Assembly (NCBI GenBank): GCA_017991895.1
Contig: JAGOPR010000001.1
Location: forward strand, 13,089 to 77,088
Direction of reading: 5' to 3'
DNA from: Minisyncoccota bacterium
GTDB taxonomy: Bacteria; Patescibacteriota; Minisyncoccia; Phycocordibacterales; UBA9973
DNA: 64,000 bases
Within the stretch, counting starts at the first letter, position 1. The number at the start of each line of letters is the position of its first letter. The notes beneath the pieces are model-generated. The model did no database searches and had not been told where the DNA came from. It saw only the letters and a program-made list of their open reading frames with translations. A program made the position numbers and the translations under genes. Below, in pieces: positions 2,738 to 64,000 of this stretch.

Positions 2738-2783
2738 GGTTACATAGTAAATACTAAATAGAAAATAGTAAATAGGTATAAAT

Positions 2784-3998
2784 CTAGCCAAAAAACGAAT
2801 TACCACGATTTTTTTTCGCTGTCTTTAAAGCTGACGCGTGCTTTATCGCATTCCTGCCATACTTTGCCCGCATTCTATCGGCAACTTCTTCAACTACAAG
2901 CTTCTCATTTGCTTTTTTTTGATTTCCAAATAAATCATCAGGTATTGTTTCGATTTTAGTTAGAGCGTGTAGTGTTATGCCTGTCGAGCGTATCATTTCA
3001 CCCTTCTTGAGAACTTTTTTAAATATCGGTTCAATTGCATTTAATATCACCCCTGCATCAGCCGAATAAAATGAAAGCTTTGCGCTTCCTTCACGATGAA
3101 TAAAATCCGTATTTTTAACAAAAAATGAAACCGATTTTGTAAGCAAGTGAAGCTCTCGTGCACGTTCACACGCCTCTTCTACATTGTCTGATAATTCCGC
3201 CCAAATATATTCCTTGTCCGAAGACGACGGTTTGAAGGTCGCAGTAGATTGTAAAGACTTCTGATCTCTCGGGTCTACATTCGACTCAACACTACTTCGT
3301 ACCTCGCCCATAAGTTCCTTTTGTAAATCAAGCAACGGCTCCGAAAAGTGCTTTTCAATTTGCTTGCTATCCATTTTTACAAAATCATACGCAGTCATAA
3401 TTGCTCTATTTAAAAGTCTCGGTACAGTTTTACGCCCAATACCCCAAACATCCTCTACTTTAGTTTTTTTAAGCGCCGACACCTCGTCCTTTTCATTCAA
3501 AAGCACAACAAGTCCATTTGGCTTATTAAGCTTTGAAGCAGTTTTCGCTAGCGTCTTTGTCCGCGCCAAGCCGAATGAATAAGTGACTCCGAGCTTATCT
3601 TGTATTTCGTTTTTTATTTCACGTACAAATTTTTCTGCGCCTTTTGCGTATTTAATATCTGCTGGCGTTGCGACTGCAAAACACTCATCGATACTATAAC
3701 GCTCAACCTCGCTCATATAAGACAACAAAATTTCATACACCTTATCTGAAATTTCTCGATACAACCCAAAACTGTGAGGAAGAATAATTACTTTAGGAAA
3801 TTTCTTTTTAATTTCAAATACGGGCATACCACGAGTGACTCCGAGTTTTTTTGCTTCGGCACTCATAGCTACAGCAATTCCACGGTCTTCGCCAACAACT
3901 ACGGGCTTACCTCGGAGCTCTGGACGGCTTACTAGCTCACACGCGACAAAAAATGAGTCGCCGTCTGCATGTAAGAATAGATCATTTTTCGTCGCCAT
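2784..3998 (-). CDS. dinB: Y-family DNA polymerase IV
   Basis: N-terminal HADGDSFFVACE (DxD..FF..VE) catalytic motif and overall ImpB/UmuC/DinB architecture. Confidence 0.85.
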   Translation of the reverse strand: MATKNDLFLHADGDSFFVACELVSRPELRGKPVVVGEDRGIAVAMSAEAKKLGVTRGMPVFEIKKKFPKVIILPHSFGLYREISDKVYEILLSYMSEVERYSIDECFAVATPADIKYAKGAEKFVREIKNEIQDKLGVTYSFGLARTKTLAKTASKLNKPNGLVVLLNEKDEVSALKKTKVEDVWGIGRKTVPRLLNRAIMTAYDFVKMDSKQIEKHFSEPLLDLQKELMGEVRSSVESNVDPRDQKSLQSTATFKPSSSDKEYIWAELSDNVEEACERARELHLLTKSVSFFVKNTDFIHREGSAKLSFYSADAGVILNAIEPIFKKVLKKGEMIRSTGITLHALTKIETIPDDLFGNQKKANEKLVVEEVADRMRAKYGRNAIKHASALKTAKKNRGNSFFG

Positions 3999-4026
3999 AA
4001 GCTTATTTTACAACATATTTTAGAGT

Positions 4027-4055
4027 TTGACAATACTACAAAAATATGCTATTAT
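4027..4055 (+). promoter_or_regulatory. Sigma70-type promoter TTGACA-N17-TATTAT
   Basis: Exact TTGACA (4027-4032), 17-nt spacer, TATTAT (4050-4055), 25 nt upstream of the small ORF at 4081. Confidence 0.5.
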
Positions 4056-4080
4056 ATAGTATAACCAATCTTTCAAAAAC

Positions 4081-4224
4081 ATGAGCTTGTATTACGAGGA
4101 AGGCGAAATAAAGAAGGACTTCATAGAACTTCCGCCCCAAATAAATTGCCCATCATATATCTGGTTCCTCGTGGACCAAGAGAAAATTACTGAAGAGGAA
4201 GCAAAGCGCATCCTCAACAATTAA
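4081..4224 (+). CDS. Small hypothetical protein (47 aa, MSLYYEEGEIKK...), not in the ORF track
   Basis: Read by hand; preceded by a canonical promoter and followed by two hairpin terminators (4242-4272, 4293-4324). Confidence 0.35.
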   Translation: MSLYYEEGEIKKDFIELPPQINCPSYIWFLVDQEKITEEEAKRILNN

Positions 4225-4292
4225 ATCTATTTCATCATCTTAATCCCCGCCACTTTATTGTGGCGGATTTTACTATCTACCCAAATAGAATA

Positions 4293-4324
4293 AGAGCGGC
4301 TGAATTTCAGCCGCTCTTTTTTGT
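4293..4324 (+). terminator. Rho-independent terminator
   Basis: agagcggctg / cagccgctct 10-bp stem followed by TTTTTT. Confidence 0.65.
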
Positions 4325-4504
4325 CTAAACCATAAAAACACAAACACACAAAACTATGATAAATCATAAGGAAGCCCGAGGGGGCAATATAACCATCCTT
4401 AACCAAAACAAAAAATCGCCCACGCTCGAGCCCCTTATGATAAATGTAAAATTACAATAGAATATAAAAATACACTATTATATCAATCTTGTCAACTCAT
4501 GTAC

Positions 4505-4537
4505 TCTCAGCCGGTAACCCGGTTACCGGCTGAGAGT
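4505..4537. repeat. REP-like perfect palindrome (copy 1), ctctcagccggtaacc-c-ggttaccggctgagag
   Basis: 16-bp perfect inverted repeat with core ccggtaacc/ggttaccgg; overlaps the last codons and stop of the RAYT gene. Confidence 0.85.
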
Positions 4538-5218
4538 AATCCACTCAATGATCTCCTTTCTGAAGTCGTTTTTGTTTGGAAAATAATCTGGAAACACATT
4601 CGTATCAAGTATCCTACTTTGCGGTCTTTTTTTATTATTAAAATCAGCAAAACTACTCCATTTATAATCCTTTAAATAATTTAGGGCTTCGTTCGTATCT
4701 CGAATACCCTTCTCCTTCCAGTCGCCCTGAATTAATTTTACAGGATTCAAATGAATATACGAAAACAGATATTTTGCGTAATTATCGTTATTAACATGAG
4801 TCGACTTGAATCGACCCTCAAAAAGTGATCCCGTGCGTTTGTGACGAGCATTAAAATATCGAGAGTAAGCCTTCTCAACTCTGTGCATATAATCTGAAAT
4901 AGGATTACTTAGCTCACCCCGCTTGCCGGTAACCGGGTTACCGGCTGGTATCGTTGCGTAAATATGAAAATGATTGGGCATCAATACCCAAGCTCCGATT
5001 GCAATAACTGTATTACCTCTTTCAAAATCAAAAGCACTTATTTTACTTTTAACAATATCATCTCTAAAATCAAACTTAGTGCTCGAATTACATAAGTATA
5101 GTAATTTTACAAATCTATCCCTATCAATATCATCAACAAAAATTAGTTGCTTACTATTCCCGCGATTATACAGGTGATAAAATTCACCCTCTACAAATGT
5201 GACAGTTCTCTGTGACAT
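4523..5218 (-). CDS. REP-associated tyrosine transposase (RAYT) / IS200-like Y1 HUH transposase
   Basis: HUH motif (MPNHFHIY) and catalytic Tyr region (AYSRYFNARH); flanked and interrupted by REP palindromes. Confidence 0.7.
   Translation of the reverse strand: MSQRTVTFVEGEFYHLYNRGNSKQLIFVDDIDRDRFVKLLYLCNSSTKFDFRDDIVKSKISAFDFERGNTVIAIGAWVLMPNHFHIYATIPAGNPVTGKRGELSNPISDYMHRVEKAYSRYFNARHKRTGSLFEGRFKSTHVNNDNYAKYLFSYIHLNPVKLIQGDWKEKGIRDTNEALNYLKDYKWSSFADFNNKKRPQSRILDTNVFPDYFPNKNDFRKEIIEWITLSR
4924..4944. repeat. REP-like palindrome (copy 2) inside the RAYT CDS
   Basis: gccggtaacc-g-ggttaccggc; in frame it encodes PAGNPVTGKR within the transposase. Confidence 0.8.
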
Positions 5219-5233
5219 ATGCCTAATTATATT

Positions 5234-5252
5234 CCGGTAACCGGGTTACCGG
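5234..5252. repeat. REP-like palindrome (copy 3), 15 bp upstream of the RAYT start
   Basis: ccggtaacc-g-ggttaccgg lies between the RAYT start (5218) and the helicase stop (5259). Confidence 0.8.
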
Positions 5253-5258
5253 CAAGCA

Positions 5259-7028
5259 TCATTTTGTCTTTTTTACATATGTTGTCTTGGAGGCCTTGGC
5301 AATTTTTTGACGTTCAAGAAAAGATTTTGTATCTTCATCAGGCTCAATTAAATTATGACTAACAAGACGCAAATTTATAGAACTCGGCCGTCGCCCAAGA
5401 ATTACAGCAATTTCCTCAATTGATTTCCCGTTCTTAAACTCGCGCACCAGCACAAAGTCTTCTTCATCCTTCCATGGCTTTCCTGCATTTGGATAAACAG
5501 AACGAATTTTTTCCATTTTTTCAATCCATTCTGGACTTGCTTTGGACTTTTTGATGCTTGATGTTTTGTATTTTTTCTCTTCGATTTTTCCTCCCATTTT
5601 TAATATGAAGCCATGCTCAAGTTTTTCGAGCTCTTCCTTTGAAAGCCTCGAAAACATTTTTTTATTTTCTTCACTTTCGCTTTGAAAATTTTCATCTAGT
5701 GCAAGCACTGCCGGATCCATTGATAACGCATTATCCGAATATCCCACTAGCCTAATACCAGATAGCGTACGTACACGTGAAAGCGCCACATACCCCATTC
5801 CGTATGTAAATGTCTTTGATAAATCTATTTCTGCGCTATCCATGCTCATTCCTTGGCTCTTGTGGATTGTAATAGCCCACGCAAGACGAAGCGGGTATTG
5901 AGTGATTGAGGCCTTAACTCGTCCATTTTCTTCTACCTCCCAGTCCATCGCTCCTACAGTAAGTTTTCTGCCAGTAGAATATATTTCGACGATCGGCTCG
6001 CCTCTGCTATCAAATCCAGAAACTTTTCCTCGCGTCCCATTAAAATATCCGAGTTCGTAGTTGTTTTTTATAAACATGACTTCTGCGCCAATCTTTAGCG
6101 CGAGTCGCTCCGGAGCAAGGCAGGCTTTTTTGAGTGCCTCAACTATAAATTCACTTCCCTTCCCCGCCATTACAAATTCTTTTGTATCTCCAGAAATCTT
6201 TGCGAGTTCCGCATGATTTATAGAATCAACATCAATATTATGTGTATACAACTTGGTCGGAAGTGTTCCGATATTCTCCGCGTTCATTCTGCCTTTTACG
6301 AGAGCCTTATGTGTATCATCCACAGTATTTGTCCGCATTGCATTTAGGATTTCCAGAAATACGTCGTCCTCCTGTCTGTGCTGTTCCGTAAGATAACAAA
6401 TAGCAGGCTTCATCGCGCGCCATGCTCGAGAATGCACCACCATGTCAGATTCAGGTATTTCTTCCTTGATTTCCCCACTATCGTAGTCAATGAATAACTC
6501 GCTTTGAGATTGTATTTTTGATTCACTATTTTCTATTTTCGATTTACTATTTACAGATTTTGTCACAGGCGGTAGCTGAAAAAAATCTCCAGACAAAATC
6601 ACCTGAAGCCCGCCAAACGGCAAATCGTTGCGCTTAAACCTGCGACATACCCGCTCCACCATGTCGAGCCGATGCGCGTGAAGCATAGAAACTTCATCAA
6701 TAATAAGTACTCTCGCTTTTTCAAATCGTTTCCAAAGATACTGCTTTTGCTCAAGTTGTTCGAGCGCAAAATCATCGAGTGTCTCACGTATGCCAATTCC
6801 AGACCATCCATGTATCGTCTGGCCGTTCATATGTGTCGCTGCGATGCCCGTAGACGCGGTTATGGCGACAGGAATCTCATGTTCATCTAGCCATCGTATA
6901 TACTCTCGTAAAGTATGTGTTTTACCGCTCCCAGCCGAACCAGTTAAGTATACGTTGAGGCCTGTCTTCATTATCGCTAGAGCTTCTGTTTGAGTCATAT
7001 ATTGAGTTTGTATTATACACGAGGACAA
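5259..7028 (-). CDS. PIF1/RecD-like ATP-dependent DNA helicase
   Basis: Walker A GSAGSGKT, Walker B LIIDEVSML, C-terminal HKSQGMS motif typical of RecD/Pif1 SF1B helicases. Confidence 0.75.
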   Translation of the reverse strand: MSSCIIQTQYMTQTEALAIMKTGLNVYLTGSAGSGKTHTLREYIRWLDEHEIPVAITASTGIAATHMNGQTIHGWSGIGIRETLDDFALEQLEQKQYLWKRFEKARVLIIDEVSMLHAHRLDMVERVCRRFKRNDLPFGGLQVILSGDFFQLPPVTKSVNSKSKIENSESKIQSQSELFIDYDSGEIKEEIPESDMVVHSRAWRAMKPAICYLTEQHRQEDDVFLEILNAMRTNTVDDTHKALVKGRMNAENIGTLPTKLYTHNIDVDSINHAELAKISGDTKEFVMAGKGSEFIVEALKKACLAPERLALKIGAEVMFIKNNYELGYFNGTRGKVSGFDSRGEPIVEIYSTGRKLTVGAMDWEVEENGRVKASITQYPLRLAWAITIHKSQGMSMDSAEIDLSKTFTYGMGYVALSRVRTLSGIRLVGYSDNALSMDPAVLALDENFQSESEENKKMFSRLSKEELEKLEHGFILKMGGKIEEKKYKTSSIKKSKASPEWIEKMEKIRSVYPNAGKPWKDEEDFVLVREFKNGKSIEEIAVILGRRPSSINLRLVSHNLIEPDEDTKSFLERQKIAKASKTTYVKKTK

Positions 7029-55082: not shown

Positions 55083-55784
55083 TTACTTTATCTTTTTTAG
55101 TATTTTTGGAATCAGCGAGAAGTCTTTTTTTAAAGTATCTCTCATTCCCCCATTATAGAGTGCTGATGCCGGATGATATAGCGGCAAAAAATATTCTGTT
55201 TCTATAACTCCCGAAACTGAAGCATTTCTTTGTTGCTCACTCGTTTTCTCCTGCGGAGTAGGATTACTACACCTTAGTCGCAAGCCTCGCTCGCGCCTCG
55301 AACTGCATTCAGTTTCGGGGGTTATAGGAGTAGTTTTAAATTTTTTGTGAATAAGCTTGCCGTGCACTTCGGAAATTTTAAGCTCGGGAAAAAAATTATT
55401 CATTGAGTGCCTGCCTAGAAAAACTATTAACTTCGGTTTTATTAAATTAAGTTCTTCGTAGAGCCACGGGGCGCAAGCCTCTTTCTCGCTTGGCATAGGG
55501 TCGCGATTGTCTGGCGGACGATACTTCACAATATTTGTAATATAAACATCTTCCCTTTTCATTCCAATACCATCAAGCATCTCTGAAAGAAACTTACCCG
55601 CTGAGCCGATAAAAGGGACACCTTCCTCATCCTCTTTTTTTCCTGGGGCTTCGCCAATAAATACAATCGAAGCTGTAGCGGGTCCGTCTCCAAAAACCGG
55701 CTGAGTAGCCGTAGCCTTTAAAACACAGGAATTTTCGTTTGCCCATTTAGTATGAAGCTCTATTAGTTCTTCCTGCTTCGTCAT
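55083..55784 (-). CDS. Uracil-DNA glycosylase, family 4
   Basis: GEAPG motif and HPS-like C-terminal motif. Confidence 0.8.
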   Translation of the reverse strand: MTKQEELIELHTKWANENSCVLKATATQPVFGDGPATASIVFIGEAPGKKEDEEGVPFIGSAGKFLSEMLDGIGMKREDVYITNIVKYRPPDNRDPMPSEKEACAPWLYEELNLIKPKLIVFLGRHSMNNFFPELKISEVHGKLIHKKFKTTPITPETECSSRRERGLRLRCSNPTPQEKTSEQQRNASVSGVIETEYFLPLYHPASALYNGGMRDTLKKDFSLIPKILKKIK

Positions 55785-55855: not shown

Positions 55856-56059
55856 ATGAATAAACACTATGTTTGTAACGGTGGGTGCAACGGAGTTTCA
55901 GATACAGAAGGAGTATGCGGTGCGGAAACTTGTGCAAAACACGGACAGCCACTTCTTGAATGCTCTTGCCAAGATGGCATGCATGAAGGAATTGTAACCC
56001 CATGTGTTGATTGCGGAAATTTGTGCAAGGAAAATAACAGCGAGGGTTGTAAGGCTTAG
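55856..56059 (+). CDS. Small cysteine-rich protein (67 aa, 10 Cys)
   Basis: ORF with a TATAAG box 6 nt upstream and a strong terminator at 56082-56118. Confidence 0.5.
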   Translation: MNKHYVCNGGCNGVSDTEGVCGAETCAKHGQPLLECSCQDGMHEGIVTPCVDCGNLCKENNSEGCKA

Positions 56060-56081
56060 AAGTAAACCAACGCGGAGTAAA

Positions 56082-56118
56082 AAAACCAGCAAGGTCCGAC
56101 CTTGCTGGTTTTTTTACT
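56082..56118. terminator. Bidirectional terminator
   Basis: aaaaaaccagcaaggtc cg accttgctggttttttt. Confidence 0.8.
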
Positions 56119-57634
56119 CTATTATTCTAATCTCATTTGCTATTTTTTCCGTTTCAGAAAAACCTGATTCATTTTTAGCATTTTTATTTATATAAACTTT
56201 GTACAGAACGTAAGAGGCCCCAAGCAAACCAGTAACACCAACAGCCAAAGATACATACAAAGGAATCTCGCTTTTCTCCACGGGTTTACTATTTTCCGCC
56301 GAAGCGACACTTGCCTGCATTTCTATTGGCATAATCGGAGCTGATACTTCTTTTACAGTAATCTTTGTCGAAGGCGAGGATACAGTGGGTGTACTAAAAG
56401 CGACTACTGATTTTTCGATTTTGGGTAACGTAGGATACGTAGAAACAATACTTCCTGATGGCAACACAAGCTGTAACCTAGCAAAGTCGCCGTCAGTGAA
56501 TCCTGTTAAGCTCTTTGATAAAAAAATTGACTTGCCCGAGATAATAAATGTTCCATACGGGATAATAAATTTTTTTGTTCCGCTCGAATTTATTATCCCC
56601 CAATCTGAGATATCTGCTTCACTGTCTGAAGGATTTTTTAATTCAATTGTACCGATATCACTCACTGATGAAATAAAAACATGTGGCTCCACGATTTCAA
56701 TAACTTGTCGTATTTTAATATCTGGTTCACGCAAATATGGGTTAGTTTTATATGTAAACATTGCCAAATATGTACCAGAAAATTCATACTCATGCTTAAA
56801 CGGCTCAAAATAATCCAATTTTTTTACTGTGCCATCTCCAAAAGAAAAATAGAATTCCCCACGCTGTCTAACTTCTCCGGCAAGTCCCGTAACTTTTACT
56901 GATACATCAAAAGGAATACCTGCTACTCCGGTTATAGGCATAGATAGCTCTGCCTTCATTTTTGGAGGCTCATATGCCTTTGGTGTAGTCACGGTCGTAG
57001 TAGACCCTGTCCCACCTCCTTCAGTCGTCGTACCTCCGCCGCCTCCACCGCCACTACCCGTATCCCCTCCACCTCCTCCAGATGATCCACCGCTGTTGCT
57101 AACTCCCGGGGTAGGAACTGCCCCTACCCAAGATGAGCCGACAAGCTGAAGTGAGTTGCCGTCGCCAGCACCTCCTACAGTATTTGTATATGAAACAGTG
57201 TCTACAATATTGCCTGCATCATCAATAATTTTTACATTACCACTCGTATTTCCTAGACTCATAGATGTATCTATAACTGTACCTGAATATCCTGAGTGAT
57301 CTGTCAGAAAAACGTCAGCATTGGAAGCTATAACTGCATACCCATTTACTGGTATTACCATTGTGCCTCGCGTTGCGGTATCTGCAAGTAAATGATTGCT
57401 TCCATCATTAAAACGCCATGTATCCCCGCTTCCGCCGGAAATTGTTACAGCTGTCGTTCCAGTATTCTGAATTTCTATCCACTCGTGATCAGAATCAGAT
57501 CCCGGCGCATCATAAAAAATCTCGCTGATGATGATACCGCCAGAAGCAAGCGTTGTTCCGCGTACGGAAAAAAATAATATGAGAATGAGTAGTAAACTGT
57601 AAACTATTCCGCGATTATTTATTCCACACCACAT
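56114..57634 (-). CDS. Secreted lamin-tail-domain (LTD) protein with Gly-rich linker and C-terminal TM anchor
   Basis: LTD signature IIISEIFYDAPGSDSDHEWIEIQNTG; poly-G/S/T linker; start trimmed to the Met that precedes the signal peptide (alternative start at 57766 would overlap the upstream ATPase). Confidence 0.6.
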   Translation of the reverse strand: MWCGINNRGIVYSLLLILILFFSVRGTTLASGGIIISEIFYDAPGSDSDHEWIEIQNTGTTAVTISGGSGDTWRFNDGSNHLLADTATRGTMVIPVNGYAVIASNADVFLTDHSGYSGTVIDTSMSLGNTSGNVKIIDDAGNIVDTVSYTNTVGGAGDGNSLQLVGSSWVGAVPTPGVSNSGGSSGGGGGDTGSGGGGGGGTTTEGGGTGSTTTVTTPKAYEPPKMKAELSMPITGVAGIPFDVSVKVTGLAGEVRQRGEFYFSFGDGTVKKLDYFEPFKHEYEFSGTYLAMFTYKTNPYLREPDIKIRQVIEIVEPHVFISSVSDIGTIELKNPSDSEADISDWGIINSSGTKKFIIPYGTFIISGKSIFLSKSLTGFTDGDFARLQLVLPSGSIVSTYPTLPKIEKSVVAFSTPTVSSPSTKITVKEVSAPIMPIEMQASVASAENSKPVEKSEIPLYVSLAVGVTGLLGASYVLYKVYINKNAKNESGFSETEKIANEIRIIE

Positions 57635-57644
57635 AGACAGTATA

Positions 57645-59990
57645 TTATTCTGACAATACGTTTCGTAGCACCTCTTCAGGAATTTCTCGTATTTTCTTTT
57701 CGCCAACTGGTTTCTCTTGTTCTGGTTTTTTTTCTTCTTGTATTGGAGGAACTGGTGTGGGTTCAATTTTTACCGGTTCAGGAATTTTTTTCTCTTCTAC
57801 TTTTTGTACATCTCCGACTTTGGGCGCACTATTTGTAGCTTTTGCAATTGCACTAGCGAGCGCTGACATACGTTCTTCTGAAGCCTGCTTTGATGCGAAC
57901 ACTTTTTGAGTAGGAACTACAGATGATTCTGCTTCTGGTTTTTTAAGTGAAGAAAGAGAAATTGTTTGCTTTTCTGGTTCTGGATTTCCGTTTTCTGGTT
58001 TCGTAACGTTAGAATTCTTTTCGTCTTTAATATTTGCACTTTGCATGTTTTTTGAGAGAGCATCTCCAAGAGCTGATTTCAAAATACTCTGAAGACCTTC
58101 GTGATCAGGAGTCGCACGCTCCTTTGCCGGTCGAATATTTTTTGGTCTTGGTTCAGAAACTGGCGTAGATGATGGAGCAGGTACTGGCGAAACAGGAGCT
58201 TGCTGAGTATGAGTCGCCATTGGTTTTGCCACTGACGCAACAGGTCGAACTTGTTGAGGTGGGACACTAGGGATCGAGACCGTAGGACTAGGTCGTGGAG
58301 TGGTAACCGGAGGCGGAACAGTTACGGGCCTCGACATTTGCGGTCGAGACACGAACGCTGGTGGAACTGGTTTCTTCAAAACAGCTGGACTTCGAGTCGG
58401 AGAAAGTTTTGCTGCGTCAGAATCTCCTTCAGGTAAATATTCGATACCGAGACCAGCAAGAGCTGAGTACGATTGTGGCTCGAGAGCCCGAGCACGTGAA
58501 GTACCTTTGACCGGTTTCATTTCCCCGCTCTTAATTTTCGCAATACAGTCCTTACAATACACAGGTCGGCCTTCTTCCGGCTCAAATGGAACAGTAGTTT
58601 CTTTTCCACAAGAAGAACATACGGCTTTAAATTTGCCTGTCTCTTCAAGACCAACAAGCATTCCACTCCAATCATTGATTTCTTTTTCAACAATTTCTTT
58701 CGGACGAGCGTATAGCTTTCGAGACATTTCTATAATCTCTTGAGCAACAGTACTTTCAACGGGGATTTTAAATGGTGTGAGTGTTTTTGCAGAAAAGGGT
58801 CGGCTTGTTACCCCATCTACCATAAGCTTTAGATAGATTGTGTAGTTTGGAAGGTTCACCATGTCTTGCGGTGTAAATTCCGGCTCAAATTCTTGCTCAA
58901 GATATTCGGCATCTGCGGCACCGATGCGGAAAATGATTATCGTTCCAACGTTACCGAAAACAGCATCACGAACTGCCTCAGAATCTTTTGTGACAAGCTG
59001 AGCAATGTATTGGTGAGCGAGAGTGAGGTTTAGGCGGTATTTACGAGCTTCAGAGAGAATACTCGCAAATGCGTCTGTAACGAAGTTTTGGAATTCGTCC
59101 ACATACAAATAGAAATCTTTACGGTCATCTTCAGGAATACGCACGCGCTCCATGGCGGCGAGCTGGAGCTTGGTAATAATCATACCTCCCAAGAGTGCTG
59201 AGTTGTCTTCACCGATACGTCCCTTTGAAACGTTCACGAGAAATATTTTTCCAGTGTTCATCAAACTAAAAAGATCGAGTGTGGATTTTGATTGTCCGAC
59301 AACATTACGCACGATAGAAGTTGATAGGAATTGTCCAACTTTGTTTTGAATCGGAGCGATAGCTTCGTTACGATATTGATCACGCCAGTTTTCATATTCA
59401 TGAACCCAGAAGGCTTTAATCACTGGATCTTTCAAATTATTGATGACTACCTGACGGTAGTCTTTGTCCACAAGAAGACGCGGAATACCAAGGAGTGTAG
59501 AGCCAGGCGTATCAACAAGCGCCAAGATCGCGTTGTTCAAAATATATTCCATACGAGCAGACCACGCGTTTGCCCAAATCTTTGTAAAAATTCCCATCAG
59601 ACCGGACGCCACAAGATGCTTGTAGCGTGGATCGTCGAGCTGAAGCACATTGAAACCGACGTGGTAATCCGCGTCAGCTGGGTTGAAATATATAACATCT
59701 TTTGCACGGTGAGCAGGGATTGTCGCAAGAATTGATTCGACAAGTTCTCCGTGAGGGTCGACAACGCAAACACCTTCGCCGTTCCAGACGTTTTGAACAA
59801 TCATATTTGCTAGAAGCGCAGATTTTCCGGAGCCGGATTTACCCAACAGGTACATGTGTTGCCGGCGATCTTTTCTTTTGATGCCGAAAACTTGTTCGTT
59901 GGCTCGGAAATTCGTCTTTGCCAAATACGTAAGATTTTTATTAAAGGCTATCCCGTCAGGGAGAAAGTCCATATGCCGTATATTATACAA
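57645..59990 (-). CDS. FtsK/HerA-superfamily ATPase (TraD/VirD4/AAA_10-like) with C-terminal zinc ribbon and Pro-rich disordered tail (paralog A)
   Basis: Walker A GKSGSGKS, VVDPHGE, Walker B YLYVDEFQNF; CSSCGKE...YCKDC; long P/S/T/V-rich tail. Confidence 0.6.
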   Translation of the reverse strand: MYNIRHMDFLPDGIAFNKNLTYLAKTNFRANEQVFGIKRKDRRQHMYLLGKSGSGKSALLANMIVQNVWNGEGVCVVDPHGELVESILATIPAHRAKDVIYFNPADADYHVGFNVLQLDDPRYKHLVASGLMGIFTKIWANAWSARMEYILNNAILALVDTPGSTLLGIPRLLVDKDYRQVVINNLKDPVIKAFWVHEYENWRDQYRNEAIAPIQNKVGQFLSTSIVRNVVGQSKSTLDLFSLMNTGKIFLVNVSKGRIGEDNSALLGGMIITKLQLAAMERVRIPEDDRKDFYLYVDEFQNFVTDAFASILSEARKYRLNLTLAHQYIAQLVTKDSEAVRDAVFGNVGTIIIFRIGAADAEYLEQEFEPEFTPQDMVNLPNYTIYLKLMVDGVTSRPFSAKTLTPFKIPVESTVAQEIIEMSRKLYARPKEIVEKEINDWSGMLVGLEETGKFKAVCSSCGKETTVPFEPEEGRPVYCKDCIAKIKSGEMKPVKGTSRARALEPQSYSALAGLGIEYLPEGDSDAAKLSPTRSPAVLKKPVPPAFVSRPQMSRPVTVPPPVTTPRPSPTVSIPSVPPQQVRPVASVAKPMATHTQQAPVSPVPAPSSTPVSEPRPKNIRPAKERATPDHEGLQSILKSALGDALSKNMQSANIKDEKNSNVTKPENGNPEPEKQTISLSSLKKPEAESSVVPTQKVFASKQASEERMSALASAIAKATNSAPKVGDVQKVEEKKIPEPVKIEPTPVPPIQEEKKPEQEKPVGEKKIREIPEEVLRNVLSE

Positions 59991-60026
59991 GCTTTAAAGC
60001 TGTAAAGCTATATAGCTGTTAAGCTT

Positions 60027-61727
60027 TTATAGTACCTCTTTTTGGTAACAGGATTCGCAGTAGACCACCTCAGGGCGTCCTTTTTCATATGGCGTTCTGA
60101 TATCTTTTTTGCAGTTATCACAAGTACGATCAAAGAGTTTAGTTGGCAAAAGCATTTTGTAGCGTTCTTTATGGCGCTCGGCTCCTGCTACTCGCGGAAT
60201 CGGCAAACCTGCTTGGCGATAGAAAGAAAGTTCAGCTGGCACAATACGATACGCTTTTCCAGAAACCTCACACTTTAAAATCATTTTTAGTATATCGTCG
60301 CCGACATCTTTGATATCGTCCGGAATCGTATAGTCAGAAAATTCGTAGTGAGTATCAGAAACATAGTCGCTCCATTTATATCCTTGTGCGAGCGCTTCTT
60401 CTTTTGAAAGCGGAAAAATATCGGGAGCAGTTGTTTCATTGTATCCATAGGAAGAAAATTCTGTTGGAAAAAATTCTCCATATTTATACACTCGCCCCAT
60501 CTTGTCCACATATGGCATATCCTGCATGTGTTTTTTAATTCTAGGTAAAAGCTCGTTATATTCTTCTTTCGTATATTTTTTATTAAGAATCGTATATTCT
60601 GCACCACGAACACAAACGCATCCAAAACAATTACTAACACTTCCTACCATTGTCGAATACTCGACAGTATTGATAGTCACTTTCTTAAGTGGGTCATTCG
60701 AAATGCAGAAAAGCAAAAATTTTGAATCATAGACTCCCCCACTGTGAGCACATTCATACGCGAGCTCGGCAGCGCCAAGGCAACTACAATCATACAAGTC
60801 ACGTGCCCACCCAGTAATAAAGAGATTTTTAGAATTTTCAATCTTTGTGCATTCCCAGACATTATGAGAATTCTTTGCTTCCGAAACTGCGTTACCCGTA
60901 GTGTCTACGGATTTAAAAATAGTATTTTCGCGGTGTGGAGAATTATTCCAAATAGGAACAATCTGCTCCTTCCACCATGAAAGTCCACGGTGAGATGATA
61001 TTGGATGTTCGGACAAAAATTTCTGATATTCCTCTTTTGTATACTGCTCGTTAAAAATACAGTATTGCTTGTTGCGCAGTCCGGCACAACCAATAACATT
61101 GCTACAATTGCGACAGTCATATGAGAGGACTGTATTTAAGGAATCGTGGCATTCATAGGAAAAGTGTGTGAAATAATCTCTCTCGCAGTGCACATTATTT
61201 GAAGAATGATCAGAGTTAAATATCCAATAATTATCGAAGCAGTTTTTGCACTGAACTCCGTATGTACAATATGCACAGTCTTCGTTGTACATCCCTCCTA
61301 CATTCATATAACAATTTTTACTATCATTCTCTTGATTTATCCATTCACTATTTATTGCATTTGAATTCAGTATTGATATTTGTGGAACAGCAAGGAAAAG
61401 CTCGAGCCATTGCTCGAAAAATGGTCGTAAAAAATCATACTCTTTACCGTATGAACACGGGTCCCATTTGTCGCTCCACCAGCATTTTGAACAATACATG
61501 GGGAAAGTCTTATCTGGAGATACACGAGAAACAACACTCGTGCCACACAAATCACAATCACGCTTGTAGAAATTACGTTCGTTACGAAAGGCAAGCCTGC
61601 GCTGAAAACGGCAGTCCGCACAAAACGTTGGAGGTGGAACATTTACCTTCTGGTAAAAGTCAAAGTCCTCTGGCTCAATCGTAAAGTCATTCTTACAGTT
61701 CTGGCAATTTCGGGTTTCGTTTTGCAT
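60027..61727 (-). CDS. Large cysteine-rich multi-zinc-ribbon protein (566 aa), paralog 1
   Basis: N- and C-terminal CxxC..FY..P..CxxCR..Y..CxxC double zinc ribbons; two internal Cys modules each ending in YCIxNxQYTKEEY. Confidence 0.55.
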   Translation of the reverse strand: MQNETRNCQNCKNDFTIEPEDFDFYQKVNVPPPTFCADCRFQRRLAFRNERNFYKRDCDLCGTSVVSRVSPDKTFPMYCSKCWWSDKWDPCSYGKEYDFLRPFFEQWLELFLAVPQISILNSNAINSEWINQENDSKNCYMNVGGMYNEDCAYCTYGVQCKNCFDNYWIFNSDHSSNNVHCERDYFTHFSYECHDSLNTVLSYDCRNCSNVIGCAGLRNKQYCIFNEQYTKEEYQKFLSEHPISSHRGLSWWKEQIVPIWNNSPHRENTIFKSVDTTGNAVSEAKNSHNVWECTKIENSKNLFITGWARDLYDCSCLGAAELAYECAHSGGVYDSKFLLFCISNDPLKKVTINTVEYSTMVGSVSNCFGCVCVRGAEYTILNKKYTKEEYNELLPRIKKHMQDMPYVDKMGRVYKYGEFFPTEFSSYGYNETTAPDIFPLSKEEALAQGYKWSDYVSDTHYEFSDYTIPDDIKDVGDDILKMILKCEVSGKAYRIVPAELSFYRQAGLPIPRVAGAERHKERYKMLLPTKLFDRTCDNCKKDIRTPYEKGRPEVVYCESCYQKEVL

Positions 61728-61764: not shown

Positions 61765-63420
61765 CTAGTTAATATTCTGCTTATAACATGCCTCGCAGGC
61801 AATCTTCGTATATCCCCATTCCTTTGGGTAGTACGCACCCACCTCATTATTGCAGTAAATGCAATTATAAGATTCCGCTTTCCACGGAGCCATCGTGCGC
61901 ATACGGTTTTTTGTACGGACATCAAAATGGACACGAGGAAGCGCAATTCCCTTTCGTGAAAGGAATTTGAATTCTTCAGGTGCGATGTTGAATCGCCAGC
62001 CAGTTTCTGGACAAATAAGTGCCTGCTTAGAGATGGTTTCGTCTACTTCCGTAATACTATTTGGCAATTCGCTCGTTGGAATACCGTCTACTTGGCTCTC
62101 AACGTTGTCATTCCAGTACCCGCCTCTAGCAAGTACAAATTCCTTTGTGATTTCTGGCATATAAATCGAAGCCGTAGTGAGATTATAATCACAAAGCCCC
62201 ATGTTATACGGCAAAAACTGCCCATATTCACCATGTGCTTTCATGTCAGCGATTATCTTTTCACGAAGTGCCTCATATTCTTCTTTTGTATATTGCCTAT
62301 TTAAAATACAATATTTTTTCTTTCGAAGCCCAACACATCCAAAACAATATTCAACTTCAAGACACTCATCGAGATATTCTGAATAGCGCCCTTCGCTCCA
62401 TGAGGAATAATGAAGTCCGTACCCTCCAGTGCAACAACTGTCATTTCCGCACACCTCGACTTTCCATGAACCAAGAAGATCAATGCAGTCCTTTGCTTCA
62501 CGTCCACGAAGACAATTCACACAATTTTCTGATTCTTCCCATCCGAAAACGTTCTGGCAATTGTTGCAATCTGCAAGGTATGTTCCTTTCGATGCATAGG
62601 TGTTTAGTGTGAAATTCTCTCGATGCACTGTCTCTTCTCGCAAGATTTCAACATAGCGTGCCTTTAGCTTTTCAAGTCCTGCGTATGAACTCATGTCATA
62701 TTCTTTAAGCTTTTCAAAATATTCTTCTTTTGTGTACTGCACATTTTCGATACAATATTGCGCACCGCGGAGATTCCAACACATCGTACAATTGCTGCAG
62801 TTTCGGCAGTCGTACAAAAATCGTGAGTTCATACAGTCACGGCAATTTCTTGAAAAATAAAGTTCGAAGGAGTGAAAGGAATAGGTACACTCGTAGCAAT
62901 TGTCTAGGGTAAATGCATGGGAGATATCCATCGAATCTTTCGCATCAAAAGAACGATATCCATACAAAAGATTTTCGGAACGAGCAACTGAGCGCGTGAG
63001 GTAACAATTTTTAGAATCCCAGACATCGTCACACCAATCGCAAAGTAAGTTGTTTGTTCCTTGTTGGTGCGGACGTGGTACTTTTTCTTGCAATTCTTTT
63101 AGCTGGTCAAAAAACGGTCGTGACTCGTCATAGTCTTGCCCAAAATCCATGGCATCCCATGCATCGCTCCACCACTCTTTGGAATGGTAAATCGGATAGC
63201 GCACGCTCGCCGGAAGCATCGTTATAAGGCTTTCTCCTGAAAGTGACGATGTAGCTTTACGAAATTTACCGAATGGCCAAAATGCAAACTGCTGTGCCAT
63301 ACGGCAAGAAAAACAATTGAGTGGTATTTCAATTGCTACTTTTTCGTACAAAAGAAACTCAGGGGGTGTGATAGTAAAATCTTTCTTACAGCTCTGGCAT
63401 TGTTTCGTTTCTGTTTGCAT
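61765..63420 (-). CDS. Large cysteine-rich multi-zinc-ribbon protein (551 aa), paralog 2
   Basis: Same architecture and conserved YTKEEY modules as 60027..61727. Confidence 0.55.
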   Translation of the reverse strand: MQTETKQCQSCKKDFTITPPEFLLYEKVAIEIPLNCFSCRMAQQFAFWPFGKFRKATSSLSGESLITMLPASVRYPIYHSKEWWSDAWDAMDFGQDYDESRPFFDQLKELQEKVPRPHQQGTNNLLCDWCDDVWDSKNCYLTRSVARSENLLYGYRSFDAKDSMDISHAFTLDNCYECTYSFHSFELYFSRNCRDCMNSRFLYDCRNCSNCTMCWNLRGAQYCIENVQYTKEEYFEKLKEYDMSSYAGLEKLKARYVEILREETVHRENFTLNTYASKGTYLADCNNCQNVFGWEESENCVNCLRGREAKDCIDLLGSWKVEVCGNDSCCTGGYGLHYSSWSEGRYSEYLDECLEVEYCFGCVGLRKKKYCILNRQYTKEEYEALREKIIADMKAHGEYGQFLPYNMGLCDYNLTTASIYMPEITKEFVLARGGYWNDNVESQVDGIPTSELPNSITEVDETISKQALICPETGWRFNIAPEEFKFLSRKGIALPRVHFDVRTKNRMRTMAPWKAESYNCIYCNNEVGAYYPKEWGYTKIACEACYKQNIN

Positions 63421-63456: not shown

Positions 63457-64000
63457 CTAAATAAGCGGTTCGGCGGTTTCTTCCACTTTCGCTGATGCAG
63501 GTGCTCCCCCACCTGACTCGTTTTTACCAGTACGCATAATTGCTGCTTTTTCTTGAGCGCTACGGATAATAGTAGACTCTTCCTCAGCAATCAAGCGCTT
63601 TGCTTCGTCTGCAGAAATTGCAAATTTTCTTCGAGATGCCTCAATTATTTTTTCCCTGTTTGATGGATATGGTGGAGTCATGACCTTCAAAGTCTCAGCA
63701 GAAAATGGGTCGTACGACTCGCCATCAATTGTCATTTTTATATAAAATTCTCCCACACCAAGGTTGATCATGTCTTTCACGTCAAAAATAGGTGCAAACT
63801 CTGGCTTTAGCTTAACTGCGTCATCGCCACCTACACGAAATGAAATCATAGACCCGACGTTTCCGAGCACGGCGGCTTCAACTTTTTCTGGAATCTGCCC
63901 CACGTACTGGTGCGCCATTGTGAGGTTGATAGCGTATTTACGAGCCTCGGAAAGAAGGTTTTCAAAAGTATCGGTCACGACGTTTTGGAACTCGTCTACG
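63457..64000 (-). CDS. FtsK/HerA-superfamily ATPase paralog B (C-terminal part; gene continues beyond the window end)
   Basis: Frame stays open to the window edge and the translation aligns with paralog A (YVDEFQNFVTD..., SEARKY.LNLT.AHQY); no zinc ribbon or Pro-rich tail. Confidence 0.6.
   Translation of the reverse strand, partial: VDEFQNVVTDTFENLLSEARKYAINLTMAHQYVGQIPEKVEAAVLGNVGSMISFRVGGDDAVKLKPEFAPIFDVKDMINLGVGEFYIKMTIDGESYDPFSAETLKVMTPPYPSNREKIIEASRRKFAISADEAKRLIAEEESTIIRSAQEKAAIMRTGKNESGGGAPASAKVEETAEPLI

What the first reader, a model, noticed from the sequence alone, without database searches (positions are those of the whole stretch)
57645..59990. ATPase paralog A carries a zinc ribbon and a long Pro-rich tail that paralog B lacks
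After the shared ATPase core, paralog A continues with ...GKFKAVCSSCGKETTVPFEPEEGRPVYCKDCIAKIK (CxxC-N17-CxxC). Then come ~250 residues of low-complexity P/S/T/V/A-rich sequence (PVPPAFVSRPQMSRPVTVPPPVTTPRPSPTV...), ending in an acidic/basic segment. Paralog B ends about 60 residues after the shared core, with a short Gly/Ala tail. This divergence within one locus suggests the two ATPases have different partners or localisation, e.g. one tethered through a disordered linker.
Basis: seen in the sequence. Interest (0 to 1): 0.5.

Follow-up and report, generated by a model that had tools for sequence, protein, structure and literature searches.

The report
Tailed coupling-protein-like ATPase of Paceibacteria
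One of two neighbouring ATPase genes in this candidate-phyla-radiation bacterium really does carry an extra zinc-binding module and a roughly 300-residue flexible tail; the tail holds short conserved motifs that look like docking sites, and the arrangement is conserved across a whole bacterial class as part of an uncharacterised four-gene module.

Summary
ORF A (57645-59972, minus strand, 775 aa from its ATG) is a soluble ATPase of the TrwB/VirD4 type IV coupling protein (T4CP) class. Its core is followed by a CxxC-x17-CxxC zinc ribbon (Pfam PF23477, E 4.5e-16) and a 299-aa tail with 15% proline.

Paralog B, recovered whole from the source contig, is 490 aa. It is colinear with A from the N-terminus (42% identity) and has no zinc ribbon, no long tail and no compensating N-terminal extension.

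A and B are old, separately conserved lineages in Paceibacteria. The zinc ribbon is present in 82/83 A orthologs and 0/55 B orthologs.

The tail is not featureless. Variable Pro-rich spacers separate six conserved islands, ending in ...REVPEDVLRKVLE-COOH. Three islands are predicted helices. B has its own short tail ending in EP(L/M)I-COOH.

A, B, a family of Cys-rich proteins with the same zinc ribbon at both ends, and a single-pass lamin-tail-domain (LTD) surface protein form a same-strand cluster. No virB4 or relaxase was identified nearby.

Best reading: the tail is a flexible scaffold or tether, as in DotL and TraD. This is inferred, not shown. I rate it a new variant of a known kind, of moderate interest.

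The parts
57645..59972 (-). ATPase paralog A: 775 aa from the ATG at 59972 (the maximal ORF starts at the TTG at 59990); the stop codon is 57645-57647
   Evidence: ORF. The ATG start is supported by the NCBI model P0001 and orthologs beginning MDFLPxG.
58653..59972 (-). Catalytic core, residues 1-440: P-loop nucleotide-binding domain with an inserted all-alpha region, and no transmembrane segment
   Evidence: PF10412 TrwB_AAD_bind (E 4.5e-13), PF02534, PF12696 and PF01935 are all above their cut-offs. The top Foldseek PDB hits are TrwB 1gl6/1e9r (probability 1.0, TM-score on target 0.60), then Cagbeta, DotL and HerA. The maximum 19-residue Kyte-Doolittle score is 1.36.
59820..59843 (-). Walker A motif GKSGSGKS (residues 44-51)
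   Evidence: Seen directly in the sequence. These residues are invariant in 117 orthologs and conserved in B.
59085..59111 (-). Walker B region YLYVDEFQN (residues 288-296)
   Evidence: Invariant or nearly invariant in orthologs and identical in B.
58530..58637 (-). Zinc ribbon / treble-clef domain, CxxC-x17-CxxC (Cys 452, 455, 473, 476)
   Evidence: PF23477 E 4.5e-16; TIGR04272 E 1.7e-16. The four Cys are invariant in 117 orthologs. AlphaFold2 pLDDT is about 86-95 across this domain.
58503..58544 (-). Tail island 1, IAKIKSGE(M/L)KPxKG, directly after the ribbon (residues 477-490)
   Evidence: Columns are at least 80% conserved. A motif pattern for it matches 67/73 species-level orthologs.
58437..58472 (-). 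Tail island 2, SxxxLAxLGIE(F/Y) (residues 501-512)
   Evidence: Nearly invariant L505, L508, G509, I510, E511. The motif pattern matches 69/73 orthologs.
58104..58430 (-). Pro-rich disordered spacer (residues 515-623), variable in sequence and length among orthologs
   Evidence: pLDDT is below 50 over almost all of it. There is no column conservation. Tail length after the ribbon ranges from 161 to 534 aa, median 264.5. No significant tandem DNA repeat is present.
58044..58115 (-). Tail island 3, (G)PDxxGLxxILxxALG; predicted helix 624-643
   Evidence: L627 and L631 are nearly invariant among the 117 closest orthologs. Helix with pLDDT 62-68. The strict pattern matches only 11/73 broader orthologs, so this island is clade-restricted.
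57939..57965 (-). Tail island 4, TISLSSLKK (residues 670-678)
   Evidence: S672, L673, L676 and K677 are nearly invariant. The pattern matches 50/73 orthologs.
57834..57890 (-). Tail island 5, KxASxExxSxLxxAIAxA; predicted helix 699-713
   Evidence: K695, A697, S698 and L705 are nearly invariant. Helix with pLDDT about 80. Clade-restricted by strict pattern, 11/73.
57648..57695 (-). Tail island 6, the C-terminal peptide KKIREIPEEVLRNVLSE-COOH (family consensus KxxREVPEDVLRKVLE); predicted helix 766-774
   Evidence: E763, P765, E766, L769 and L773 are nearly invariant. The motif lies within 3 residues of the C-terminus in 74/79 orthologs. pLDDT about 78.
63457..64000 (-). ATPase paralog B, the C-terminal 180 aa; the gene runs off the window end. 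The full protein is 490 aa (L001:8492-9964).
   Evidence: No zinc ribbon in 0/55 B orthologs. Conserved EP(L/M)I-COOH tip in 42/50.
61765..63420 (-). Cys-rich paralog 1 (551 aa), between B and A
   Evidence: 34% identical to paralog 2 over the full length. Member of a family with more than 7,800 homologs.
60027..61727 (-). Cys-rich paralog 2 (566 aa), with CxxC-x17-CxxC ribbons at both ends (Cys 58/61/79/82 and 536/539/557/560)
   Evidence: PF23477 hit at 531-564. An HMM built only from A's ribbon finds residues 54-82 (i-E 0.0055) and 532-563 (i-E 3e-5). In the family, 48/82 members hit PF23477.
56114..57634 (-). Lamin-tail-domain (LTD) membrane protein (506 aa). It has an N-terminal hydrophobic segment, an LTD ectodomain, a C-terminal transmembrane helix and a short cytoplasmic tail ending ...IANEIRIIE-COOH. 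Its ATG lies 10 nt after A's stop.
   Evidence: PF00932 E 4e-20. It is directly downstream of A in 47/73 species loci.
56075..56119 (.). Hairpin with a 20-bp stem flanked by A and T runs; likely a bidirectional terminator that closes the B-Cys-Cys-A-LTD unit
   Evidence: No comparable hairpin lies between 56120 and 64000.

Best explanation
A is the long form of a pair of soluble ATPases of the TrwB/VirD4 type IV coupling protein (T4CP) class, neither of which has a transmembrane domain. The pair is conserved across the class Paceibacteria of the Patescibacteria.

Its ATPase core (NBD plus all-alpha region, presumably ring-forming like TrwB) is followed by a Zn-binding CxxC-x17-CxxC ribbon. After that comes an intrinsically disordered tail of about 300 residues, in which variable Pro-rich spacers connect short conserved peptides and helices and which ends in a conserved C-terminal peptide.

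The most likely role of the tail is a flexible scaffold or tether that docks partners onto the motor. This is how the C-terminal extensions of the coupling proteins DotL (adaptors DotN, IcmSW) and TraD (TraM) work.

The most plausible partners are the products of the same transcription unit. One is the bitopic LTD surface protein, whose conserved cytoplasmic C-terminal peptide could link the soluble motor to the membrane, as TraI does for the TMD-less T4CP TraJ of pIP501. The others are the Cys-rich proteins that carry the same zinc ribbon at both ends. B, with a short tail and a different C-terminal tip, would serve a different partner or step.

Shown: the architecture, its conservation, the predicted disorder with conserved islands, the gene cluster, and the absence of nearby genes identified as T4SS components. 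Inferred: ring formation, zinc binding, the scaffold or tether function, partner identity, and the substrate (probably nucleic acid, by homology). By parsimony the ribbon and tail were gained in the A lineage, because B, TrwB-like structures and phage homologs all lack them.
For: - **Domains and fold:**
- **A and B are colinear, with no N-terminal extension in B:**
- **A and B are separate conserved lineages:** A-A identity 64-79%, B-B 73-81%, A-B 41-45%.
- **Ribbon and tail are retained:** ribbon plus a tail of 169-504 aa in 115 of 117 orthologs with an intact ribbon; ribbon in 82/83 A and 0/55 B orthologs.
- **Conserved islands separated by unconserved spacers:**. The islands coincide with the only confident helices in an otherwise low-pLDDT tail.
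- **C-terminal tips fixed relative to the carboxyl end:** A 74/79, B 42/50, LTD 38/48.
- **Same-strand cluster in 79/80 species-level loci:** B within 8 kb in 53/80, the LTD gene directly after A in 47/73, Cys-rich genes in 47/80. Only these families recur beyond housekeeping synteny.
- **Tight gene spacing:** a 10-nt A-LTD gap and a single strong terminator after the LTD gene.
- **The same ribbon type occurs in A and at both ends of the Cys-rich proteins:**
- **No transmembrane segment in A or B:**
- **Literature precedents:** DotL's long C-terminal tail binds DotN and IcmSW (PMC7280309). TraD's flexible C-terminal tail binds TraM (PMC3159463). T4CPs without a TMD can pair with a membrane protein, as TraJ/TraI of pIP501 do (PMC7431656). 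The CxxC-x17-CxxC domain binds zinc in Methanosarcina mazei small proteins (PMC12704099).
Against: - No interaction, localisation, oligomeric state, metal content or substrate was measured.
- Presence of the conserved islands does not correlate with whether the LTD gene is adjacent. The ribbon and islands 1, 2 and 6 are near-universal in both arrangements, so no island can be assigned to the LTD protein.
- In 26/73 loci the gene after A is a Cys-rich gene or B, not the LTD gene.
- The C-terminal helix is acidic. It could bind something encoded elsewhere in the genome, which I could not see.
- Islands 3 and 5 are restricted to the closer clade.
- The AlphaFold2 model is a monomer and says nothing about complexes.
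Confidence: 0.55

Rival explanations
1. A and B are ordinary coupling proteins of a conjugative or effector-secreting type IV secretion system encoded elsewhere in the genome. The tail recruits relaxosome or effector substrates to that channel.
For: T4CP-family Pfam domains and TrwB as the best structural match. T4CP genes can lie far from virB4, and Patescibacteria do encode monoderm-type T4SS (PMC12102498). The tail-as-recruiter idea matches TraD and DotL.
Against: No virB4, relaxase or other T4SS gene was identified in the 64-kb window. None recurs in 80 loci of +/-8 kb.

The published survey found 5,713 VirD4-like homologs in 2,918 Patescibacteria genomes. Only 148 were near virB4, and relaxases were rare (109). 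In that survey the homolog was non-essential in Ca. Southlakia while T4SS genes were essential, and the authors raise exaptation.

There is no transmembrane domain. Scores are far below all NCBIfam TraD/VirD4 equivalog cut-offs. The partners that are actually conserved are non-T4SS families.
Confidence: 0.15
2. The module is a DNA or nucleotide acquisition (or DNA export) machine independent of the T4SS. The LTD ectodomain captures extracellular DNA, and the tethered A/B motors translocate it.
For: By homology the core belongs to the DNA-translocase superfamily of TrwB, HerA and FtsK, with a weak NCBIfam hit to the archaeal DNA-translocating ATPase CedD.

Phage homologs (phrog_5156, E 6e-58) sit beside ParM-like and replication-relaxation genes. 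The LTD protein is bitopic with a conserved cytoplasmic tip.

From my own knowledge, not tested here: LTD domains occur in ComEC-type and extracellular-nuclease proteins, and Patescibacteria depend on scavenged nucleotides.
Against: No membrane channel component is part of the conserved cluster. DNA binding by this LTD protein, the ribbon or the motors is untested. The role of the Cys-rich proteins is unexplained.
Confidence: 0.2
3. The tail is a functionally neutral low-complexity extension (entropic spacer or expansion-prone filler) with no specific partners. The difference from B is incidental.
For: The spacers are unconserved and their length varies three-fold. Composition is biased.
Against: Six islands are conserved across orthologs down to 55% overall identity. 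The C-terminal peptide is fixed at the carboxyl end in 74/79 orthologs. Every one of 83 A orthologs over 600 aa keeps a tail. There are no tandem DNA repeats that would suggest slippage-driven expansion.
Confidence: 0.05
4. The cluster is an anti-phage or conflict system built on HerA-like ATPases, with the Cys-rich paralog arrays as diversifying sensors or effectors.
For: PADLOC mad8 (E 1e-13) and weak HerA hits. Cys-rich copy number varies from 0 to 6 per locus.
Against: The hits reflect generic ATPase-core similarity. The genes sit in a syntenic housekeeping context in 80 species. A, B and the Cys-rich proteins are strongly conserved in sequence and length: the top 120 Cys-rich homologs are 48-100% identical and mostly 560-630 aa. 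This is unlike the patchy, fast-evolving pattern of defence islands. No nuclease, Sir2 or TIR-type effector domain was detected.
Confidence: 0.05

Closest known systems
TrwB (plasmid R388) and the VirD4-type type IV coupling proteins
   Same: P-loop NBD with Walker A and B plus an all-alpha insertion. It is the best structural match (Foldseek probability 1.0, TM-score on target 0.60). Pfam TrwB_AAD_bind, T4SS-DNA_transf and TraG-D_C are all above their cut-offs.
   Different: No N-terminal transmembrane domain. Only about 14% sequence identity. Not linked to virB4 or a relaxase. It carries a zinc ribbon and a 300-aa tail that TrwB lacks.
DotL, the Legionella Dot/Icm coupling protein, with its C-terminal tail
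   Same: A T4CP whose long C-terminal extension acts as a scaffold that binds adaptor proteins, with the very C-terminal segment binding a specific module, IcmSW (PMC7280309). DotL is among the top structural hits (6sz9).
   Different: DotL is membrane-anchored and part of a T4BSS. There is no sequence similarity between the tails. DotL has no zinc ribbon. The partners here (LTD protein, Cys-rich proteins) are unrelated, and binding is not shown.
TraD of F-like plasmids (C-terminal tail binding TraM)
   Same: A flexible, acidic C-terminal tail whose extreme C-terminal peptide, carboxylate included, is the specific docking element (PMC3159463). PF12696, 'TraM recognition site of TraD and TraG', is detected in A.
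   Different: TraD is a membrane protein of a conjugative system. No TraM, relaxosome or oriT is evident here. Scores are far below the TraD equivalog cut-offs (28-51 bits against 366-648).
TraJ/TraI of pIP501 (a T4CP without a TMD, paired with a membrane protein)
   Same: A soluble T4CP thought to be brought to the membrane by a separately encoded membrane protein (PMC7431656). That parallels soluble A followed 10 nt later by a bitopic membrane protein.
   Different: TraI of pIP501 belongs to a plasmid T4SS. The LTD protein is a chromosomal surface protein with LTD/PKD-like ectodomains. The interaction here is hypothetical.
CxxC-x17-CxxC domain proteins (TIGR04272 / PF23477), e.g. Methanosarcina mazei small proteins
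   Same: Identical Cys spacing and a significant HMM match. The domain was shown to bind zinc by ICP-MS (PMC12704099).
   Different: Those are stand-alone small proteins, or tandem arrays of the domain with R/G-rich linkers. Here a single copy is fused to an ATPase. The domain's biochemical role is unknown in every context.

Membership tests
Type IV coupling protein (VirD4/TrwB/TraD) family | Nucleotide-binding domain with Walker A and B of the FtsK/HerA/VirD4 P-loop class. PMC7431656 names the NBD as the motif that defines the family. | tested here: met
   PF10412 at 49.3 bits (cut-off 20.5), PF02534 at 36.4 (20.1), PF12696 at 30.6 (22). Walker A GKSGSGKS and Walker B DEFQN are invariant. TrwB is the top Foldseek hit.
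Type IV coupling protein (VirD4/TrwB/TraD) family | All-alpha domain inserted in the cytosolic domain | tested here: inconclusive
   The AlphaFold2 model has a helical block (H115-133, 139-154, 162-177, 183-216, 219-225) between core strands. The PF10412 match spans residues 39-359, and the structural alignment to TrwB covers about 450 columns. I did not map domain boundaries residue by residue.
Type IV coupling protein (VirD4/TrwB/TraD) family | N-terminal transmembrane domain. Present in most T4CPs, but a recognised subclass lacks it. | tested here: not met
   Walker A begins at residue 44. The maximum 19-residue hydropathy is 1.36 for A and 1.02 for B. PMC7431656 lists 'T4CPs without TMD' as class iii.
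Type IV coupling protein (VirD4/TrwB/TraD) family | Genetic or functional association with a T4SS (virB4) and/or a relaxase | tested here: not met
   None was identified in the 64-kb window or recurs in 80 loci of +/-8 kb. The rest of the genome was not available. The literature reports only 148 of 5,713 Patescibacteria homologs near virB4.
NCBIfam TraD / VirD4 equivalogs (TIGR02759, TIGR03743, TIGR03754, NF045973) | Whole-protein score above the curated cut-off | tested here: not met
   Scores of 26.6-51.4 bits against cut-offs of 250-648.
zf_Tbcl_2 (PF23477) / TIGR04272 CxxC-x17-CxxC domain | Four Cys with 2-17-2 spacing and an HMM score above the gathering threshold | tested here: met
   C452, C455, C473 and C476. 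58.7 bits against 27, and 59.7 bits against 36. The Cys are invariant in 117 orthologs.
zf_Tbcl_2 (PF23477) / TIGR04272 CxxC-x17-CxxC domain | Zinc binding | not testable with these tools
   Shown experimentally only for M. mazei small proteins (PMC12704099).
HerA-type helicases (DUF87 core) | DUF87 ATPase core together with the HerA-specific N-terminal barrel and a NurA or effector partner | tested here: inconclusive
   PF01935 is above its cut-off (30.3 against 23.2), but it ranks below the T4CP models and the structural match is weaker (HerA TM-score on target 0.44-0.45 against 0.60 for TrwB). Only about 40 residues precede Walker A, which leaves no room for a HAS barrel. No NurA, Sir2 or nuclease neighbour was found.
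DotL/TraD-like 'scaffolding tail' coupling proteins (a functional class, not a sequence family) | The C-terminal extension binds adaptor or partner proteins through defined segments | not testable with these tools
   Only indirect support: conserved islands and a conserved C-terminal tip within a disordered tail.

The most novel reading that the evidence does not exclude
A, B, the double-zinc-ribbon Cys-rich proteins (whose confident AlphaFold2 model has no significant structural match in the PDB) and the bitopic LTD protein together form a previously unrecognised machine. It would be specific to Paceibacteria and related Parcubacteria, span the cell envelope and work independently of the T4SS. 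Two exapted coupling-protein motors would be wired to a surface receptor through A's motif-bearing tail. A plausible job is moving DNA or other macromolecules between the ultra-small cell and its host or environment.
Probability: 0.25. Interest if true: 0.8.

Novelty: new variant of a known kind. Interest (0 to 1): 0.5.

Why it matters
Patescibacteria genomes carry on average about two 'orphan' VirD4-like genes that are not linked to their T4SS. The only survey I found that covers them could say no more than that they may have been exapted (PMC12102498).

This analysis gives that puzzle some structure, at least in Paceibacteria:
- The two copies are distinct, anciently diverged forms.
- One form has a zinc ribbon and a tail with a modular set of conserved docking motifs.
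- Both forms are embedded in a conserved operon-like cluster with a surface LTD protein and a large, wholly uncharacterised Cys-rich family.

That turns an annotation label ('T4SS DNA-binding domain-containing protein') into concrete, testable hypotheses about interactions and localisation. These organisms depend on other cells, and how they exchange macromolecules with them is an open question.

Tried and rejected
- **Gene-call artefact or frameshift fusion producing the tail:** rejected. The same continuous ORF with ribbon and tail occurs in 117 database orthologs and in 82/83 A orthologs over 600 aa (80 GTDB species loci plus the exploratory loci).
- **N-terminal extension in B (domain swap):** rejected with the full B sequence.
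- **Tail generated by tandem DNA repeats:** only two marginal TRF rows, scores 34 and 43.
- **Tail module shared with other protein architectures:** I searched the ribbon plus tail against 1.84 billion representatives. Hits carrying islands 1, 2 or 6 are fragments of A-type proteins. The other hits share only the ribbon and are small multi-ribbon proteins. The tail is therefore specific to the A family.
- **Linking a tail island to the LTD protein by presence or absence:** no signal. The islands are universal whether or not the LTD gene is adjacent.
- **Known defence systems (PADLOC):** only generic mad8 and HerA ATPase similarity.
- **LTD protein against PDB sequences:** nothing significant.
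- **Literature:** searches linking lamin tail domains with Patescibacteria or CPR, or T4CP with competence in Parcubacteria, gave nothing relevant.
- **Promoter scan:** fewer hits than in shuffled sequence, so uninformative.
Full report
**1. What is there**

Orthologs and the NCBI gene model start six codons later, at the ATG at 59972, giving 775 aa. I use the 775-aa numbering below.

The window comes from contig JAHZTO010000157.1 of a 'Candidatus Pacebacteria' metagenome-assembled genome, GCA_020049755.1. Every other large ORF I scanned in the window that had a Pfam match is a housekeeping gene: LepA, MurJ, LeuRS, AlaRS, DnaK, RpoA, Obg, MnmA, DinB-like and RmuC. I identified no T4SS, pilus or relaxase gene. 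There are no tRNAs.

**2. The core**

Residues 1-440 match the coupling-protein models PF10412 (TrwB_AAD_bind), PF02534 and PF12696, and also DUF87/HerA, all above their curated cut-offs. Scores are far below every NCBIfam TraD/VirD4 equivalog cut-off.

An AlphaFold2 model built on 117 orthologs is confident for the core. Its best PDB matches are TrwB (TM-score on target 0.60), Cagbeta, DotL and then HerA. Sequence search of the PDB finds only TrwB, weakly.

Walker A (GKSGSGKS, residues 44-51) and Walker B (DEFQN) are invariant. Neither A nor B has a hydrophobic segment that could span a membrane. Both therefore fall in the recognised subclass of 'T4CP without TMD' (PMC7431656).

**3. The zinc ribbon**

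CSSCGKETTVPFEPEEGRPVYCKDC (C452, C455, C473, C476) matches PF23477 zf_Tbcl_2 (E 4.5e-16) and TIGR04272 'CxxC-x17-CxxC' (E 1.7e-16), both well above threshold. The four Cys are invariant in 117 orthologs and the domain is modelled confidently.

Zinc binding by this domain type has been shown for Methanosarcina mazei small proteins (PMC12704099). Its function is unknown in any context.

**4. The tail**

After the ribbon come 299 residues with P 15.1%, S 11%, K 10.4%, A 9.4%, E 9.4% and V 9%; proline is 3.9% in the cores. DNA tandem repeats do not explain this.

Across 117 orthologs the tail alternates unconserved spacers of variable length with six conserved islands:

| Island | Residues | Consensus |
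|---|---|---|
| 1 | 477-490 | IAKIKSGELKPxKG |
| 2 | 501-512 | SxAxLAxLGIEF |
| 3 | 620-643 | GPDxxGLxxILxxALG |
| 4 | 670-678 | TISLSSLKK |
| 5 | 695-713 | KxASxExxSxLxxAIAxA |
| 6 | 759-775 | KxxREVPEDVLRKVLE-COOH |

AlphaFold2 gives pLDDT below 50 for 515-623 and for the other spacers. It predicts helices exactly at islands 3, 5 and 6, with pLDDT 62-80.

In the 80 species-level loci, the tail after the ribbon is 161-534 aa long, median 264.5. The C-terminal motif lies within three residues of the carboxyl end in 74/79 orthologs. The ribbon and islands 1, 2 and 6 are near-universal. Islands 3 and 5 are restricted to the closer clade.

Searching the ribbon plus tail against 1.84 billion representative proteins showed that sequences carrying the islands are all A-type proteins or fragments of them. 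The remaining hits share only the ribbon and are small proteins with 2-5 tandem ribbons and R/G-rich linkers.

**5. Paralog B**

Only the last 180 residues of B are in the window. The source contig gives the full 490-aa protein, L001:8492-9964.

B aligns with A from the N-terminus to about A430 at 42% identity. It has no zinc ribbon and ends about 60 residues after the core.

A and B are separate, anciently diverged lineages: A-A identity is 64-79%, B-B 73-81% and A-B 41-45%. None of 55 B orthologs has the ribbon, against 82 of 83 A orthologs.

B is not tail-less, however. It has a conserved helix (LIAEEExTIIRSAQEKAAI), a short variable acidic/Lys-rich linker, and a conserved EP(L/M)I-COOH tip in 42/50 orthologs.

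Outgroup-like relatives lack the ribbon and long tail. These are TrwB-class structures and the phage family phrog_5156, for example the 906-aa CampHawk_129. By parsimony the ribbon and tail were gained in the A lineage. This is an inference; I built no rooted tree.

**6. The neighbourhood**

On the minus strand the order is B, Cys-rich 1 (551 aa), Cys-rich 2 (566 aa), A, then the LTD protein (506 aa). The gaps are 36, 37, 54 and 10 nt. The only strong hairpin terminator lies directly after the LTD gene.

In 80 species-representative loci from GTDB genomes:
- In 79/80 loci, all members of the four families lie on one strand.
- B is within 8 kb of A in 53/80 loci, and in 37/48 of those with at least 6 kb on both sides.
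- The LTD gene directly follows A in 47/73 loci.
- Cys-rich genes (up to 6 copies) are present in 47/80 loci.

Unsupervised clustering of all neighbouring ORFs found no other family recurring in more than 31 loci. The annotated ones among those lesser clusters are ordinary syntenic housekeeping genes: UDG, MurA-like, MurB, CutA1, DnaK and Nramp.

The LTD protein has an N-terminal hydrophobic segment, LTD and PKD-like ectodomains, a C-terminal transmembrane helix, and a cytoplasmic tail of 25-35 aa ending in a conserved ...D(M/I)x(I)(I/V)E-COOH, found in 38/48 orthologs.

The Cys-rich proteins carry CxxC-x17-CxxC ribbons at both ends. An HMM built only from A's ribbon detects the N-terminal ribbon in 47/82 members and the C-terminal ribbon in 31/82. 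Pfam PF23477 hits 48/82.

**7. How it most likely works**

The pattern of disordered, length-variable spacers, short conserved helices, and a peptide fixed at the very C-terminus is the signature of a tether or scaffold that presents linear motifs. Within this protein family there are direct precedents:
- DotL's C-terminal tail runs along and binds DotN, and its last segment binds IcmSW (PMC7280309).
- TraD's flexible C-terminal tail docks into TraM, with the carboxylate as part of the recognition (PMC3159463).
- The TMD-less TraJ of pIP501 is paired with the membrane protein TraI (PMC7431656).

I therefore favour a model in which A's tail docks co-encoded partners. These would be the cytoplasmic tip of the LTD protein (giving the soluble motor a membrane and surface connection) and/or the ribbon-bearing Cys-rich proteins. 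B, with a different tip, would serve another partner or step.

The substrate is probably nucleic acid, by homology to TrwB, HerA and FtsK, and because phage homologs sit beside ParM-like and replication-relaxation genes. That is inference only. The attempt to tie a specific island to the LTD protein by co-occurrence gave no signal.

**8. Comparison with what is known, and novelty**

Public annotation calls these proteins 'type IV secretion system DNA-binding domain-containing protein' or 'CxxC-x17-CxxC domain-containing protein'.

The only directly relevant paper I found reports 5,713 VirD4-like homologs in 2,918 Patescibacteria genomes. Only 148 were near virB4. That paper also reports non-essentiality in Ca. 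Southlakia and suggests possible exaptation (PMC12102498).

In the passages I searched, that paper does not mention zinc or lamin (LTD). None of my literature searches turned up a description of the two conserved paralog classes, the zinc ribbon with its motif-bearing tail, or the cluster with LTD and Cys-rich proteins.

A meets the defining NBD criterion of T4CPs. It fails the features of a TMD, T4SS linkage and equivalog score. It is best filed as a T4CP-like ATPase of a new architectural variant, not as a bona fide coupling protein.

**9. Verdict**

- This is a new variant of a known kind.
- Interest is moderate (0.5). The domain difference itself is a modest point, but it marks a lineage-wide, uncharacterised module that may explain the orphan T4CP homologs of Patescibacteria.

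Noticed in passing
[not shown]
   Followed up: partly
window 56114-57634 (- strand): The LTD membrane protein downstream of A has a short cytoplasmic tail whose extreme C-terminus is conserved: ...D(M/I)x(I)(I/V)E-COOH in 38/48 orthologs. That suggests a docking peptide for a cytoplasmic partner.
   Followed up: partly
window 63457-63640 (- strand), the end of paralog B: B's short tail carries a conserved helix (LIAEEExTIIRSAQEKAAI) and a conserved EP(L/M)I-COOH tip (42/50 orthologs). An acidic linker followed by a hydrophobic C-terminal tip is reminiscent in style of SSB-type C-terminal tips. That resemblance is from memory and was not tested.
   Followed up: partly
L088 (Bacillus phage CampHawk KF669649.1, CDS CampHawk_129, locus 2747-5467): SPO1-like Bacillus phages, phage G and deep-sea phage D6E encode homologs of the A/B core (phrog_5156, E 6e-58 to A). 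The CampHawk copy (906 aa) has an additional N-terminal region of roughly 400 aa, no zinc ribbon and no transmembrane segment. In CampHawk it sits between a ParM-like gene and a 'plasmid replication-relaxation' gene. Its function is unknown.
   Followed up: partly
window 56075-56119: A perfect hairpin with a 20-bp stem, flanked by A runs on one side and T runs on the other. It lies between the convergent LTD gene and the small + strand ORF at 55856-56059 and is a likely bidirectional terminator.
   Followed up: no
window 55856-56059 (+ strand): A 67-aa ORF with 13 Cys (MNKHYVCNGGCNGVSDTEGVCGAETCAKHG...). It is called as a gene in the NCBI record (L001:17362-17565). It may be a small metal-binding protein. 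It is not characterised.
   Followed up: no
window 55083-55784 (- strand): The family-4-type uracil-DNA glycosylase here is 233 aa, against 193-202 aa in orthologous loci (L005, L056). Its ORF translation contains a Ser/Arg/Glu-rich stretch (…TECSSRRERGLRLRCSNPTPQEKTSEQQRNAS…) that might account for the extra length. I did not align the orthologs.
   Followed up: no
window 59973-60026 (- strand), upstream of A's ATG: A TATAAT hexamer lies only about 9 nt upstream of A's ATG, within the 54-nt gap after Cys-rich 2. It could be an internal promoter giving a very short leader or a leaderless transcript. The consensus scan did not call it.
   Followed up: no
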